Assembly (NCBI RefSeq): GCF_009914755.1
Contig: NC_060938.1
Direction: 5' to 3' (one strand)
DNA: 64,000 bases
Origin: the human T2T-CHM13v2.0 reference genome, Homo sapiens
Shown piece by piece: positions 4,158-15,779 of this stretch. Under the pieces are notes generated by a model, which did not search any database, was not told the DNA's origin, and saw only the letters and a list, made by a program, of their open reading frames with translations. Position numbers and translations under genes: made by a program. Position 1 is the first letter of the stretch. Each line of letters starts with the position of its first letter.

Positions 4158-4530
4158 TGTAGATAGGGTTCTTCAGATAAACAGAACTACTAGAATATGT
4201 ATGGGTGTATCTATGTGTACATATATTCAGAGATTTATTTTAAGGAATTGGTTTATGTAGTTGTAGGGGCCTGACGAGTCTGAAATCTGTGCAGGCCTAT
4301 AAGAAGGAGTTAGGGCCTTAGTCTCAACTTCTGGAAAAATCTCAATTTCTGCTCTTATGACCTTTAGGTGAACTGGATAAGGCCCACCCACATTATGGAG
4401 GGTAATCAAGAGATTATAGATGTTAACCATATCTACTAAATACTTTTCACAGTAACACCTAGATTAATGTTTGATTAAATAACTGGCTACTAGAGTCTAG
4501 CCAAGTTGACACAGAAAACTAAGCAACACA
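4158..4530 (-). mobile_element. MLT2-family (ERVL) solo LTR, diverged
   Basis: Reverse complement starts TGTGTTGCTTAGTTTTCTGTGTCAACTTGGCTAG, like MLT2 5' ends; typical internal blocks (AGATTTATTTTAAGGAATTGG, GGCCCACCCACATTATGGAGGGTAATC). Confidence 0.8.
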
Positions 4531-4960
4531 CTGTCCTTCCATGTGCACCAGAGACTTTCAGACTTTAAAAAACCTCCACCAATAGTTTATACACATACTT
4601 AATGAAACCATATGCTGATGTTTTCTGTTCTTATTCTTTTTTTTAAAATGCTGATTAGGAACCCAAAATTCAATGTGAGTAGATCTGACCAGCAATTTGA
4701 AAAACATTGCATATATATGTAGTCTAGAAATGGAATTGCTGGCTTGCAAGGTATCCACACGTCCACTTTACTATACATTGCCAGTTTTTTTCTCTGAAGT
4801 AGTTGAACCACTGTACAGCCCTACTAGCCGTGTGAATAAACCTTCTTTCTTACCCCCTTGATGGCAACTGGTAATTGCAGTTTCCTTGTAGACCTAATTA
4901 TTCCAGATAGGTCTGGGCTTATTTTTTAAGGTCTTTAAAACTTGATAAAAATCGACTTTA

Positions 4961-12769: not shown

Positions 12770-13579
12770 TGATCTGTTCCATTTTTGAACATGTTCTTTC
12801 TTACAGAGCACTAAAAATCTGCCTCCCTGTAATTTGTAAAAGCTTTGTTTTCCTGAACTTTGCTAAATAAGTTTGCTTCCATATGTGTCCTTTAAATGTT
12901 CAGTCATCGTATCTCCTTTACTGTCTGAGTCCAAGCTAGTTGCTTCAGGTGCCTTTTCAGATGGTTTTTTTGGGGATCTCTTTTCATCTCCTGTTGTCCT
13001 TCTAAGTGTGTTCCAGTTGGCCACAATGTCCATCTTAAATTGTACTCAGAACTGAATATGAAGAATACTGAGCATTTTTTGAACCTTTATGCCAGCACAG
13101 TACTAAAATGTTTTTCATACTCCTGTATCATTCAGTGTTCACAGTAACCCAGGAGGAAGATTTTTTCTCTGTTTTACAGATGGCATCCCATAGTTCAAAG
13201 AGTCAGAGGGTTGTAAAAGTAGCACAGATAGTGAGTGGCGGAACCCCAAGTAGTTCACTCCTGGGTCATAATCTCACTTATTTCTCAGGCTGTGTTCATT
13301 TAGCCTGTTAGCCACTATCTTTCTGTTATTACAGTTTAAAGTTGTATTAGTCACTTTTCCTATTGTATTGCTTATTGGAGTCTTTGGAGTCAGAATTTAA
13401 TTTTAATGTTATCTTATTTTTCATAGACCTAGAAGAAAAGGGCAGAATATGTAAAGTTAATTGATTTTTAAACAGTGGTGTTGCCTATAAAATAAATTTA
13501 CAGTTTTATTGTAAGCCCTGATTACAATCGTTTTAAGTTTAAAGTTGGTTAAAACTTTAAACTTTAAAAAAACTAACCT

Positions 13580-14930
13580 GTCCACTGAGGCTCCCAGTGG
13601 ACAGCGAGCTCGGCTTGTGGCTGAGACACACTTGAGCCAGGCCAGAGGCATAGGAGGACCAAATTTGACAGATATCAATACACGATTCTTACTGAGGCCT
13701 TTGAAACGGACCCTTGTCCTGGAATTACTGTCAGAAAAGAACCGGCCAGAAAAACAGACTCCCGAGCCACGAGTCCAGGTTTGGTTTCAGAATTGGAGAG
13801 GTGGAGCACGGAAAAGAAGCCAGAGCAGCGCCAGCGTGGAGGCCACCTGGGCGCAGGTCCCCCCGATCCCAGACCCTGGTCAGCCTGGGGTGCTGACCCC
13901 TACTGTTCCACCAGCGGGGCTTCCCCGGGGGTCCCAAGCAATGTGGGCAACTTCTCTTGGGAATCGGAGGATGCTTTGGGCCAAGCTCTCCTCTGGGGGC
14001 GCGCTGATGTTCCGTGCGCGAATGTGGCCCCCGCTGACCTGGAGATGGCAGCCAGTGCGCTCGGCCACGCTTAGGGAGATGTCCCTTGATCTCCGCCCTC
14101 GGGCCCAGTGCTGCTTCCGGGTCCCTCTTGCCACCAGCCCTTCCCACAGCTGGAAGCTGGCAGTGCTGGGCCTCAAGTTCATCCCGGGGCACCCGGCCTG
14201 CTCCCCATACACCAGTCCCTAGCTCTGCGGGGGCTGGGGCTGCACCCTCCTGCTGTGGAGCAGCAGCCGAGGTGGGGCTGGCAGCTGGGGGAGGCGCCTG
14301 GGTGCGCCGTGACCTGGGAGCAGCCCTCTCCGCCCCAGCCCCCGCAGCTCTGACCGTATCCCGCCTCTCTGCCTCTTTCCTGGCCATAGTCACAGCCACA
14401 GCCATCGCAGGACCCGGCTGAGCGCTAGGAACAGGTTCCTTGTCTTCCTCCAGAATCCAACTCGCACGGGAGGCCCCAGCACCCCTGCCCCCAACCCGCT
14501 GCGGAGTCTGAACCTCAAGCGGCTGCATAGCAAACCCGTGGAAATGACCTGTCAGTGTCAGGCAGTGGAAGACAGATGAACTAAGCAAGGGCTCATCGGT
14601 AGTGTTCACGTTATGAAAATTGAAGAGAAATATCAAGATTTATTTACTTTGTCACGGAAGGGCTTCCAGACATACCTTTCAGGGAAATCGAGTTGTTAGG
14701 GTGGAAGGGCCTTGGGGTGCATGAGACCTAGGGGTTTTCCTTAGATGGCATAAAAAAGGATTGACTTTATAGAATACATCTGTCTTTCCATTTATTAACC
14801 GAGTAAACACGGAGCACTGAGAGTGAACAAAGTCCACTAGCGAGAAGGCAGGATGAGGACGGCTTTGTAGAAATGCATTATTTTCTATCAGGAAAGAGCA
14901 ATGATTTCTACTCTGGGAAAAAAACAAAAC
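13580..14930 (+). pseudogene. Intronless DUX-family (PRD-class) homeobox retrocopy, degraded
   Basis: Homeodomain QRHRRTKFDRYQYTILTEAFETDPCPGITVRKEPARKT/QTPEPRVQVWFQNWR (from 13643) broken by a 2-bp frameshift near 13755; Pro/Gln-rich tail with in-frame stops; A-rich tail 14918-14930; degenerate TSD. Confidence 0.85.
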
Positions 14931-15779
14931 AAACACTTACCTAAAAGTAATATTTACATATTGTTGAAAGTTCATAGATAAAAGTATAAAGAATAAAAAA
15001 AATTCACCTATTATTCCATCACCCAGAGGTGATAATCGTTAAACATTTTGGGGTATTTCTTCCAATTTTTTTTGTATGTATTTATATAAGTGAGATGATA
15101 GATTATCTGTGTGTGTGTATGTGTGTATTGTCTTCCTGAGCATCGGACCTAAGCAGTTTCCACGTTGTTAAAACTGCTTATAAAGGTTTTAAATAACTAG
15201 GTGTAATACTTTATTACATGGATATGTCAGTATGTTTAACAATTACTCTATTGAAAATTTAGGTGTCTCAGTTTTGGAAGAATATGGAAGTCTTGGTTGT
15301 CCAGCATTTATTCTGACATTAAGTAGAAATAAGTGATTTAGGACATATTTCTAGCAGATACTAAAAAACTGTGTATAGGATGTCTGGAGATCCCTGGCTT
15401 TTCTTGTGTGTGTGTGTGTGTTTTTTTTTTCCTCTTCTTTTCAAAGTGGCTGTTCAGAGTTCTGCCTCTTAGGGTTACTGAAAGCTTATAAAGTTATGTT
15501 GTAATTATAAAAATAAATGCTATTTTAGAAAATTCAAATAGTACATAATGCATAATATATAATTGTTTTCCACAAAATGTGAACTGTTATCAGTCTGCTC
15601 ATAAGTACATCTGGGACTTTGTTTCATCTCAGTATATCTACAGTTATCTAATTTTTTTTTACTGTAACTAGTATGGATGTATCATAATTTAGCCTTTTTT
15701 TAAACAAAATTACCTGTATTACCTATTGATGAATATTTATAATCTTAGTTCTTTTTTTAAACTCTGTTTTTTAAAAAAC

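What the first reader, a model, noticed from the sequence alone, without database searches (positions are those of the whole stretch)
13580..14942. Hidden DUX-family homeobox retrocopy inside RCOR1 intron 3
Seen: an abrupt GC-rich island in AT-rich intron. One frame from 13643 reads QRHRRTKFDRYQYTILTEAFETDPCPGITVRKEPARKT, and another frame continues QTPEPRVQVWFQNWR. Restoring 2 bp (ACAG to ACACAG, ~13755) gives exact homeodomain register: R5, F8, Q12, L16, F20, P26, R31, W48-F49-Q50-N51, R53. The odd residues C25, P34, T40 and W52 are each one transition away from Y, L, I and R. The ORF track hides this because each half lies in a different frame. No intron splits helix 3, although intron-containing PRD-class genes typically have one there. 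Also seen: a TT|AAAA target site at 13564-13569, an A-rich tail at 14918-14930, and a 10/12 direct repeat (AAAAACTAACCT 13568-13579 vs AAACACTTACCT 14931-14942), i.e. hallmarks of L1-mediated retroposition. Established: AFE.D..PGI..R.ELA..T..PE.R.Q.WFQN is the DUX homeodomain signature, and DUX genes are cleavage-stage/germline activators. Inference: the sequence is too divergent from DUX4, DUXA or DUXB as I recall them to be a recent copy. It may be the fossil mRNA of a distinct, possibly extinct or unannotated, DUX-lineage gene expressed in the germline or early embryo.
Basis: partly seen in the sequence, partly recalled or inferred. Interest (0 to 1): 0.88.

Follow-up and report, generated by a model that had tools for sequence, protein, structure and literature searches.

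The report
Fossil of a lost DUX-like gene
A decayed, intron-less copy of a single-homeobox gene of the DUX lineage sits in an intron of RCOR1; the gene it was copied from is still predicted in many other mammals, but no working or closer copy can be seen in the human genome.

Summary
Window 13580-14942 is a full-length processed pseudogene. It has a short 5'UTR, a start-codon relic, a 60-codon homeobox split by a 2-base loss, a roughly 270-codon ORF relic with 3 frame breaks and 4 stops, a 3'UTR, a poly(A) remnant and 10/12 target-site duplications.

It is not a copy of DUX4, DUXA, DUXB, the 10q22 DUXBL remnant or CPHXL (33-46% identity over 37 residues). It matches, along its whole ORF (67%), a family of predicted single-homeodomain proteins that I call X. 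These carry automatic names such as "DUX4C-like" or "Pax-6-like". They occur in monkeys, a gibbon, a lemur, carnivores, a rhinoceros, cetartiodactyls, bats, moles, a marmot and an elephant.

On a homeodomain tree X falls with DUX/sDUX, next to the HD2 group, with modest support.

Human T2T-CHM13 shows only one other X-derived locus: an unannotated, equally decayed copy on chr7 (K2P 0.26). No parent is visible. Both copies are old, roughly 45-90 My, and the date is poorly constrained.

The element itself looks dead. The interest lies in what it records: a DUX-lineage homeobox gene absent from the visible human genome, for which my searches found no published name.

The parts
13564..13569 (+). 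TT|AAAA, an L1-endonuclease-type target at the 5' junction
   Evidence: Read. The consensus for the L1 target is recalled, not tested.
13568..13579 (+). 5' target-site duplication (AAAAACTAACCT)
   Evidence: It matches 14931-14942 at 10 of 12 positions. Only 0.6-0.9% of control positions do as well.
13580..13616 (+). 5'UTR relic of the source mRNA
   Evidence: Homology with the chr7 copy starts at 13581, and the flanks upstream do not align.
13617..13619 (+). start-codon relic (GTG here, ATG in the chr7 copy)
   Evidence: It lies about 8 codons before the homeodomain, as in the intact relatives P0001 and P0004. It is out of frame with the homeodomain by one base.
13643..13820 (+). homeobox relic (60 codons), with no intron at position 46/47 and broken by a 2-base loss near 13755-13760
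13617..14428 (+). whole ORF relic (about 270 codons) of the single-homeodomain protein. Frame breaks lie near 13760, 13905 and 13924. In-frame stops lie at 14072-14074, 14087-14089, 14351-14353 and 14387-14389. The original stop is at 14426-14428.
   Evidence: Frameshift-aware alignment to P0004 gives 175/261 identical residues.
14429..14917 (+). 3'UTR relic. AGGAAA at 14890-14895 aligns with AGTAAA in the chr7 copy, a possible poly(A) signal.
   Evidence: Alignment A1 and sequences. This part is as diverged as the ORF: K2P 0.25 vs 0.27.
14918..14930 (+). poly(A) tail remnant (AAAAAAACAAAAC)
   Evidence: Homology with the chr7 copy ends just before it.
14931..14942 (+). 3' target-site duplication (AAACACTTACCT)

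Best explanation
The element is a dead, full-length processed pseudogene. A spliced, polyadenylated mRNA of a single-homeobox gene of the DUX/sDUX lineage (family X) was reverse-transcribed by the L1 machinery in the germ line of an early primate. It was inserted in sense orientation into RCOR1 intron 3.

**What the source gene encodes.** The protein is about 270-340 residues long, with a homeodomain roughly 10 residues from the N-terminus and a fast-evolving tail specific to the family. Gene models from two species imply an intron at the usual PRD position 46/47.

**Since insertion.** The copy has drifted neutrally. It has lost its ATG, has 3 frame breaks and 4 stops, and its ORF is as diverged as its 3'UTR. 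A second retrocopy of the same mRNA, most simply an independent one, lies on chr7. The source gene itself is not visible in T2T-CHM13.

**Shown:** the anatomy, the homology, the lesions, the absence of a closer human locus among visible regions, and the absence of a RefSeq annotation.

**Inferred:** L1 mediation, germline expression of the source, the age (about 45-90 My), and loss of the source in the human lineage.
For: **Structure.** The 5' and 3' ends coincide with those of the chr7 copy (74% identity over query positions 2-1335 of 1351), while the flanks do not align. Poly(A) remnant, TT|AAAA and a 10/12 duplication are present.

**Homology.**
- P0001 matches at E 7.1e-45; it was the only hit among 10 scored candidates.
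- The family was then found with 28 of 495 scored candidates and 103 of 1075.
- Matches covering 81-98% of the 298-residue first query sequence come from cat, fox, rhinoceros, hippopotamus, cetaceans, a bat, reindeer, yak and ibex.
- Against P0004 the window copy is 175/261 (67%) identical and the chr7 copy 177/244 (72.5%).

**Intron in the source.** The gibbon and yak models carry 27- and 28-residue insertions exactly between Q46 and V47. Human DUXA, DUXB and CPHXL have their exon boundary at or near that position.

**Not a known human gene.** DUX4 HD2 is 46% identical, DUXA and DUXB 38%, CPHXL 36% and the 10q22 remnant 33%, each over 33-37 residues.

**No third locus.** Searches with P0004 (142 of 2098 candidates scored) and with its post-homeodomain 205 residues (112 of 112 scored) find only chr14 and chr7.

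**Neutral decay.** K2P is 0.27 in the ORF and 0.25 in the 3'UTR. Lesions are listed.

**Not annotated** in RefSeq.
Against: - The chr7 copy has no recognisable poly(A) tail or duplication (judged by eye). Its retrocopy status therefore rests on shared mRNA ends and the lack of the homeodomain intron.
- The evidence for the source's intron is indirect. It comes from two gene models and no genomic DNA.
- The primate models look decayed. 3 of 6 start at a Met inside the homeodomain (P0002, P0005, P0007), and 2 of 6 run in the wrong frame after the N-terminal third (P0001, P0003). Only P0004 is fully in frame. Gibbon, monkey and Cebus models are only 80-87% identical, close to what I would expect for neutral drift. 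The source may already be dying across anthropoids.
- The AU test rejects none of 4 alternative placements, p 0.057-0.22 (only 2000 replicates). Dating and the independence of the two copies are therefore weak.
- I could not see any non-human genomic DNA, so there was no test of synteny or of an empty site.
Confidence: 0.85

Rival explanations
1. Family X is not a separate gene. It would be the second-homeobox half, or a single-homeodomain isoform, of a known double-homeobox gene such as DUXBL (exons 3-5) or DUXC-alt. The fossil would then be a retrocopy of that isoform.
For: - Passages of PMC13558733 say that characterised DUXC transcripts have a dominant single-homeodomain isoform.
- Passages of PMC3004920 say a 10 kb deletion removed DUXBL exons 3, 4 and part of 5 in human, chimpanzee and gorilla, but not in orangutan, baboon or marmoset. 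That pattern resembles X being predicted in gibbon and monkeys but invisible in human.
- X is sister to the HD2 group on the tree.
Against: - In the same orders X and DUXC are clearly different proteins. Compare fox, mink and cat X with raccoon-dog DUXC, and reindeer, ibex and yak X with reindeer, buffalo and goat DUXC.
- The HD2 clade of DUXB, DUXC and DUX4 excludes X at 92% ultrafast bootstrap.
- The Met plus about 10 residues before the homeodomain recurs in mink, moles, cetartiodactyls, bats, marmot and monkeys.
- No remnant of the X 3' part was found in the 96 kb SFTPD-TMEM254 interval that holds the human DUXBL remnant. The only hit was an 83-base homeobox match at 69%.
- The X tail has no significant match to 22 DUX4, DUXC, sDUX and other PRD-class tails; the best E-value was 0.12.
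- I never had a DUXBL HD2 sequence, so this rival is not excluded.
Confidence: 0.1
2. The RCOR1 copy and the chr7 copy are not independent retrotranspositions. One derives from the other, or both descend from one event followed by DNA-level duplication.
For: They share both ends. The AU test does not reject the two as sisters, p 0.22. The chr7 copy shows no poly(A) tail or duplication of its own.
Against: - The flanks do not align at all.
- The ML tree separates the two by a branch with 85% support.
- Each is nearer to the anthropoid genes (68-72%) than to the other (62%).
- A copy of a copy would need a promoter exactly at the old 5' end.
Confidence: 0.12
3. It is a heavily diverged retrocopy of a gene still present in human: DUX4, DUXA, DUXB or CPHXL/CPHXL2.
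For: DUX4-like repeats are the nearest other human sequences, at 43-54% over 37 residues. DUXA and DUX4 have many pseudogenes (passages).
Against: - Identity to those genes is 33-46%, against 67% over the whole ORF to family X.
- There is only one homeobox, and the shared 5' end of two copies argues against 5' truncation.
- The tail is homologous to X tails and not to DUX4.
Confidence: 0.02
4. The relic has been co-opted and works today, for instance as an intronic regulatory element of RCOR1 or as a source of a short peptide or RNA.
For: CpG observed/expected is 0.47-0.50 at 58-68% GC. That is higher than in the chr7 copy (0.37-0.38) and, as I recall, above bulk genome values. The relic lies in sense orientation in a large intron.
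Against: - RefSeq lists no functional element or transcript here.
- Divergence is equal in the ORF and the UTR.
- The ORF is broken 7 times and the ATG is lost.
- I had no expression, chromatin or conservation data.
Confidence: 0.05

Closest known systems
sDUX, the single-homeobox ancestor of the DUX family, described in non-eutherian vertebrates (PMC3004920, PMC10514451; passages read)
   Same: It has one homeodomain near the N-terminus, an intron inside the homeobox at the PRD position, and a long ORF after it. The best single-domain PDB match of the intact relative P0004 is platypus sDUX 8EJO, at 70.8 bits. Helix 3 ends in WFQNRRAR, as in sDUX and DUX HD2.
   Different: Family X is found in eutherians, where the passages I read place only double-homeobox DUX genes. 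The tails show no detectable similarity. For mink X, DUX4 HD2, sDUX and Paired score about equally, 64.5-65.6 bits. Orthology to sDUX was not tested, because no synteny data were available.
DUX4/DUXC second homeodomain
   Same: It gives the best PDB hits for the window's own first half (E 1.7e-6, aligned to HD2). X is sister to the HD2 clade at 66% support.
   Different: X has a single homeodomain. Identity is 46% over 37 residues. I saw no C-terminal activation-domain motif of the DUX4 type in the X sequences I read, and there was no significant tail similarity.
Known human retro-pseudogenes of PRD-class and DUX homeobox genes (DUXAP1-12, DPRXP, ARGFXP, TPRX1P1)
   Same: They arose by the same mechanism and share the same fate. 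The passages cite such copies as signs of germline expression of their parents.
   Different: Their parents are still in the human genome and the copies are annotated. Here neither holds.
MSX3, named in PMC3141429 as the only homeobox gene lost in human relative to mouse (passage read)
   Same: It is a homeobox gene present in other mammals and missing from human.
   Different: MSX3 left no retro-fossils that I know of. No mouse or rat protein appeared among the listed X hits, though those searches see only some candidates.

Membership tests
Processed (L1-mediated) pseudogene | Co-linear with a mature mRNA, lacking the parent's introns | tested here: met
   The relic is continuous from the start-codon relic to the stop and 3'UTR. 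There is no interruption at homeodomain position 46/47, where the gibbon and yak models carry 27- and 28-residue insertions and where human DUXA and DUXB exons end. The parent's intron is inferred from gene models, not seen in DNA.
Processed (L1-mediated) pseudogene | Poly(A) tail at the 3' end | tested here: met
   AAAAAAACAAAAC at 14918-14930 lies directly after the end of homology with the chr7 copy.
Processed (L1-mediated) pseudogene | Target-site duplications flanking the insert, with an A-rich target | tested here: met
   The repeat matches at 10/12. It is equalled at 357/62363 control positions, and at 66/7438 AT-rich ones. TT|AAAA lies at 13564-13569.
Processed (L1-mediated) pseudogene | Empty site in outgroup species | not testable with these tools
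   No non-human mammalian genome DNA was available.
Homeodomain, PRD class (Pfam PF00046) | 60-residue register with W48, F49, N51 and R53 plus the hydrophobic core (L16, F20) | tested here: met
   The register was read across the break. Each half alone falls below the Pfam cutoff, at 19.4 and 12.7 bits against 22.9. Intact relatives carry PF00046 and hit DUX4 at E 1.4e-29.
DUX (double homeobox) family | Two homeoboxes in one ORF | tested here: not met
   The relic and every family X model read have one homeobox. Only about 60 bases lie upstream of it in both human copies.
DUX/sDUX lineage | Homeodomain clusters with DUX and sDUX and not with other PRD-class domains | tested here: inconclusive
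   On a tree of 60 homeodomains X lies inside the DUX+sDUX group, but that node has 52% support. X monophyly has 74% and X+HD2 has 66%. PDB ranking puts DUX4 and sDUX first. The ETCHbox, SEBOX, NOBOX, RHOX and mouse Duxbl domains were not in the tree.
DUX4/DUXC clade | Conserved C-terminal activation domain | tested here: not met
   I found no such motif in the X tails I read. A profile of 13 X tails finds nothing in 8 DUX4/DUXC tails, all at E 3.8 or worse.
Retrocopy of DUX4, DUXA, DUXB, DUXBL remnant or CPHXL | Highest similarity to that gene along the transcript | tested here: not met
   Identity is 33-46% over 33-37 residues, and nucleotide matches are confined to at most 174 bases of the homeobox region. 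Against X it is 67% over 261 codons.

The most novel reading that the evidence does not exclude
Family X would be an unrecognised, pan-eutherian single-homeobox member of the DUX/sDUX lineage. On this reading placental mammals did not simply replace sDUX with double-homeobox genes.

A single-homeodomain relative would have persisted. It is still open-reading in carnivores, a rhinoceros, cetartiodactyls, bats, moles and a marmot. It would have been active in the germ line of early primates, is decaying in anthropoids, and has vanished from the human genome. Its only human traces would be two unannotated retro-fossils, in RCOR1 intron 3 and on chr7.

The 2026 DUX survey kept only models with two adjacent homeodomains (passage), so it would have filtered such a gene out by design.
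Probability: 0.4. Interest if true: 0.72.

Novelty: new member of a known kind. Interest (0 to 1): 0.6.

Why it matters
As an object the element is ordinary: a dead processed pseudogene. Its value is as a record.

- **Catalogue.** It adds two unannotated homeobox loci to the human list. It also points to a homeobox gene family that many mammals still carry and that is not visible in the human genome.
- **Origin of DUX genes.** In the passages I read, the DUX literature describes DUXA, DUXB/BL and DUXC/DUX4 as the eutherian descendants of sDUX. A single-homeodomain relative with a DUX-type recognition helix (WFQNRRAR) would bear on how the double homeobox arose. It would also bear on which factors share DUX4-type binding sites in cleavage-stage embryos of cattle, pigs, dogs and monkeys, which are used as models for DUX4 biology.
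- **Public databases.** The automatic names of these proteins ("Pax-6-like", "DUX4C-like", "MIXL1-like", "SEBOX-like") are misleading. Several primate models are built on broken frames.

Tried and rejected
**Known human parent.** Local tblastn and blastn against DUX4, DUXA, DUXB, CPHXL, CPHXL2 and the whole SFTPD-TMEM254 interval at 10q22 found only homeobox-level similarity, 33-46% at the protein level. Rejected.

**Kinship of the X tail with DUX4.** A "PWWGW"-like motif looked shared by eye. A profile of 13 X tails against 22 tails of DUX4, DUXC, sDUX and other PRD proteins gave nothing better than E 0.12. Dropped.

**Dating by tree position.**
- The ML trees place the RCOR1 copy beside the crown anthropoid genes.
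- The AU test rejected none of 4 alternatives, and I ran only 2000 RELL replicates, below the 10000 that IQ-TREE advises.
- I therefore give only a broad age. It rests on K2P 0.22-0.26 between the copies, 68-72% residue identity to anthropoid genes against 80-82% for Cebus vs catarrhines, and recalled divergence dates.

**Atlas search.** The search with mink X returned only generic homeodomain clusters. No use.

**Literature.** Five searches found no name for family X and no mention of a homeobox pseudogene in RCOR1.
- Read as passages only (find mode): PMC3004920, PMC13558733, PMC10514451, PMC3141429, PMC11542365 and bioRxiv 10.64898/2026.03.05.709741.
- All other papers were seen only as search listings.
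The additional files of PMC3004920 and the supplementary data of PMC13558733 (lists of BLAST hits and predicted genes) could mention X, and I could not see them.
- GENCODE, HGNC and Ensembl could not be consulted.

**Rows left out.**
- The homeodomain tree used 60 domains. 54 came from 46 of the 123 proteins held. P0002, P0005, P0007 and P0039 were left out because their homeodomain is incomplete or interrupted. Most of the near-identical reindeer, goat and sheep DUXC models were also left out.
- The labels "sDUX", "DUXC" and "X" on tree tips are mine, assigned from sequence. Only 8EJO is confirmed as sDUX by a paper.
- The full-length tree used 24 rows and 244 of 461 columns. P0001, P0002, P0003 and P0042 were cut to their first BLASTP match to P0004, because the rest of each model is out of frame.
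Full report
**Observation.** The sequence is as described. GC rises from about 0.3-0.4 in the surrounding intron to 0.60-0.69 between about 13700 and 14600. Frame A from 13643 reads the first 38 residues of a homeodomain, and frame B from 13755 reads QTPEPRVQVWFQNWR. The mechanical ORF list splits the domain between two ORFs.

Alone, the halves are weak Pfam Homeodomain matches: E 9.3e-4 at profile positions 1-36 and E 0.11 at positions 41-52, both under the curated cutoff. The first half finds DUX4, aligned to its second homeodomain, as the best solved structure (E 1.7e-6, 13 sequences at E up to 1).

TT|AAAA at 13564-13569, the A-rich run at 14918-14930 and the 10/12 direct repeat are all there. 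A repeat that good, in the same geometry, occurs at 357 of 62363 other positions of the window and at 66 of 7438 AT-rich ones. The host intron is intron 3 of RCOR1 NM_015156.4, and the element lies in sense orientation. The stretch is not repeat-masked and carries no RefSeq feature.

**A second human copy.** A DNA search of the window's own genome gave three matches: the locus itself, chr7:89936710-89938001 (minus strand, 74% identity over query positions 2-1335 of 1351), and a 107-base homeobox-level match in the chr14 short arm.

The chr7 copy starts and ends within a few bases of the RCOR1 copy, and the flanks do not align. Both therefore reflect the ends of one mRNA. It is unannotated in RefSeq and lies inside the span of a lncRNA on the other strand.

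- It has CACAG where the window has CAG.
- It has Tyr, Leu, Ile and Gln codons where the window has Cys25, Pro34, Thr40 and Trp52.
- TGG (chr14) and CAG (chr7) are the two CpG-decay products of CGG, so Arg52 is the likely original state (inference).

The chr7 copy has its own lesions: 6 frame breaks and 4 stops against P0004. I could see no poly(A) tail or duplication. An Alu abuts its 5' side.

**What it is a copy of.** Against the human genes the match is poor. DUX4 HD2 is 46% identical, DUXA and DUXB 38%, CPHXL and CPHXL2 36%, and the 10q22 DUXBL remnant 33%, each over 33-37 residues. Nucleotide similarity is confined to at most 174 bases of the homeobox region.

The protein word search with the 225-residue ORF (region 71-225) returned one protein of 10 scored candidates, with 122 unnamed ones left out. 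This was P0001 of Rhinopithecus bieti, at 63% identity, full coverage and E 7.1e-45. Searching with P0001 gave 28 hits of 495 scored candidates. Searching with a profile of six relatives gave 103 of 1075.

Together these revealed a family that I call X. Its members are predicted proteins of about 200-370 residues, with one homeodomain beginning about 10 residues after the first Met and an alignable tail. Members come from:
- Pygathrix (a 90% cluster of 17 sequences), Rhinopithecus, Cercocebus, Cebus, a gibbon and Lemur;
- mink, fox and cat;
- black rhinoceros;
- hippopotamus, two cetaceans, reindeer, yak and ibex;
- a bat and two moles;
- a marmot and an elephant.

Their automatic names, such as "DUX4-like protein 4", "DUX4C-like", "Pax-6-like", "MIXL1-like" and "SEBOX-like", carry no weight.

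A frameshift-aware alignment of the only fully in-frame primate model, P0004, gives these figures:
- The RCOR1 copy is 175/261 identical (67%) from just before the homeodomain to the stop.
- Frame breaks lie near 13760, 13905 and 13924.
- Stops lie at 14072, 14087, 14351 and 14387.
- The original stop is at 14426-14428.
- A GTG sits where chr7 has ATG (13617).

The relic is therefore full length: 5'UTR of about 36 bases, ORF, 3'UTR of about 490 bases, and tail.

**Retrocopy and not the gene.**
- The homeobox is uninterrupted in both human copies.
- The gibbon and yak models carry insertions of 27 and 28 residues exactly between Q46 and V47. The gibbon insertion begins with Val and ends with Lys, as an in-frame GT...AG intron read through would.
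- In human DUXA (both homeoboxes) and DUXB the exon ends at that point, and in CPHXL within a few residues of it.
- A passage of PMC3004920 says the same for sDUX and all four intron-containing DUX genes.

I take this as indirect evidence that the source gene has the usual intron.

**Where X belongs.** On a tree of 60 homeodomains (LG+G4, ultrafast bootstrap):
- X, including both human copies, is one clade (74%).
- X is sister (66%) to the HD2 clade of DUXB, DUXC and DUX4 (92%).
- The whole DUX+sDUX grouping has only 52% support.

PDB ranking agrees in kind. For P0004 the best single-domain hit is 8EJO (70.8 bits), which PMC10514451 identifies as platypus sDUX, ahead of DUX4 HD2 chains (about 62 bits) and Paired (52.6 bits). 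For mink X the three are level at 64.5-65.6 bits.

X is distinct from DUXC in the same orders. Its tail matches no DUX4, DUXC or sDUX tail.

X is therefore a single-homeobox gene of the DUX/sDUX lineage, with architecture like sDUX. Whether it is the orthologue of sDUX, an offshoot of the HD2 half of an early double-homeobox gene, or part of DUXBL could not be settled. I had no DUXBL HD2 sequence and no synteny data.

The DUXBL reading deserves mention because the published ape deletion of DUXBL exons 3-5 would fit X's absence from human. Three results argue against it:
- the 92% HD2 clade that excludes X;
- the recurring N-terminal Met;
- the lack of any X-like 3' remnant at 10q22.

**No source gene visible in human.** P0004 against the whole assembly gave the RCOR1 copy (58%, residues 8-269) and the chr7 copy (75%, residues 45-142). 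All other hits were DUX4-like repeats at 60% identity or less. Only 142 of 2098 candidates were scored.

To escape that saturation I searched with the 205 residues after the homeodomain. All 112 candidates were scored. Only the chr14 and chr7 loci were significant, and the next hit was E 0.004 at 35% on chr1. Matches in closed regions are not shown, so loss is likely but not proven.

The gibbon and monkey models are not orthologues of either human copy. They are 68-72% identical to them, but 85-93% identical to each other.

**State of the source in primates.** Among 6 primate models:
- 3 begin at a Met inside the homeodomain (P0002, P0005, P0007);
- 2 continue in the wrong frame (P0001, P0003);
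- only P0004 is fully in frame.

Anthropoid models differ by 13-20% of residues, near my recalled expectation for neutral drift. The gene may be dying across anthropoids.

In Laurasiatheria frames are kept across orders over 244 aligned columns, and by my count the homeodomain is about 78-83% identical between rhinoceros, mink and hippopotamus. This suggests a live, fast-evolving gene. I could not compute dN/dS.

**Age and independence.**
- K2P between the two human copies is 0.265, or 0.217 without CpG sites. The ORF (0.27) and the 3'UTR (0.25) are alike, so both copies have drifted neutrally.
- The full-length ML tree puts the RCOR1 copy beside the crown anthropoid genes (their clade has 95% support). 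The chr7 copy lies across an 85% branch, towards Lemur and the non-primates.
- On the homeodomain tree the RCOR1 copy groups with the monkey genes at 98%.
- The AU test rejects none of the alternatives tried (2000 replicates only):

| Alternative placement | p (AU) |
|---|---|
| the two copies as sisters | 0.22 |
| RCOR1 copy inside catarrhines | 0.09 |
| chr7 copy inside catarrhines | 0.10 |
| both copies outside primates | 0.057 |

Using recalled primate dates and the identities, I place both insertions somewhere between the boreoeutherian split and the platyrrhine-catarrhine split, roughly 45-90 My. That is a rough estimate.

**How it works.** It does not work now. Most likely the X mRNA was expressed in germ cells or very early embryos of an early primate. 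It was captured by L1 target-primed reverse transcription at a TT|AAAA site, inserted into RCOR1 intron 3, and has decayed since.

The protein it once encoded has the Q50, N51 and R-type helix 3 (WFQNRRAR) of DUX4 HD2 and sDUX. Passages of PMC10514451 link that helix to TGAT-type core sites and, for sDUX, to binding as a head-to-head homodimer. That X did the same is inference only.

A present regulatory role for the GC-rich relic (CpG observed/expected 0.5) cannot be excluded, but nothing supports it.

**Novelty.** The element is a new member of a known kind. RefSeq does not annotate either locus. Five literature searches and the passages read from six papers gave no name for X and no mention of these loci. 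Supplements, GENCODE and HGNC were out of reach, so prior description cannot be ruled out.

Noticed in passing
G000 chr7:89936710-89938001, minus strand (L002 about 1501-2792): A second, unannotated retrocopy of the same mRNA. It has 6 frame breaks and 4 stops against P0004, no poly(A) tail or target-site duplication that I could see, and an Alu abutting its 5' side. It lies within the span of lncRNA LOC107986816 on the opposite strand.
   Followed up: yes
proteins P0007 (gibbon) and P0039 (yak): Public gene models carry 27- and 28-residue insertions exactly between homeodomain residues 46 and 47. They look like an unspliced small intron read through, so the models are probably wrong at that point.
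   Followed up: partly
proteins P0001 (Rhinopithecus) and P0003 (Lemur); window ORF 13545-14222: Two public models leave the conserved frame after the N-terminal third. They run on in the same alternative frame that is open for 225 codons in the human relic. P0001 even reads into what is 3'UTR in the human copy. Long open alternative frames are expected in DNA this GC-rich.
   Followed up: partly
window 13731-14636, minus strand: A 301-codon antisense ORF lies across the relic. This is most likely another by-product of GC-rich sequence. I did not search with it.
   Followed up: no
window 13580-14917 vs L002 1501-2792: CpG observed/expected is 0.50 in the RCOR1 copy and 0.38 in the chr7 copy, at similar GC (0.58 vs 0.56). 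I have no explanation for the difference.
   Followed up: no
L015 (chr10:80881625-80891624), minus strand, about 4451-4600 of the reverse strand; L013: The first-homeobox exon of the human DUXBL remnant is well preserved (HMM score 72 bits). On the tree it groups with DUXB HD1 at 98%. A CPHX-like homeobox remnant lies nearby in L013.
   Followed up: partly
G000 chr1:152670394-152670726: A weak match (E 0.004, 35% over 109 residues) to the proline-rich tail of P0004. It is probably compositional.
   Followed up: no
proteins P0035-P0063 (Rangifer): Many reindeer DUXC-like models contain three or more homeodomain-like segments and repeated blocks. This suggests gene models that run across tandem array units.
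   Followed up: no
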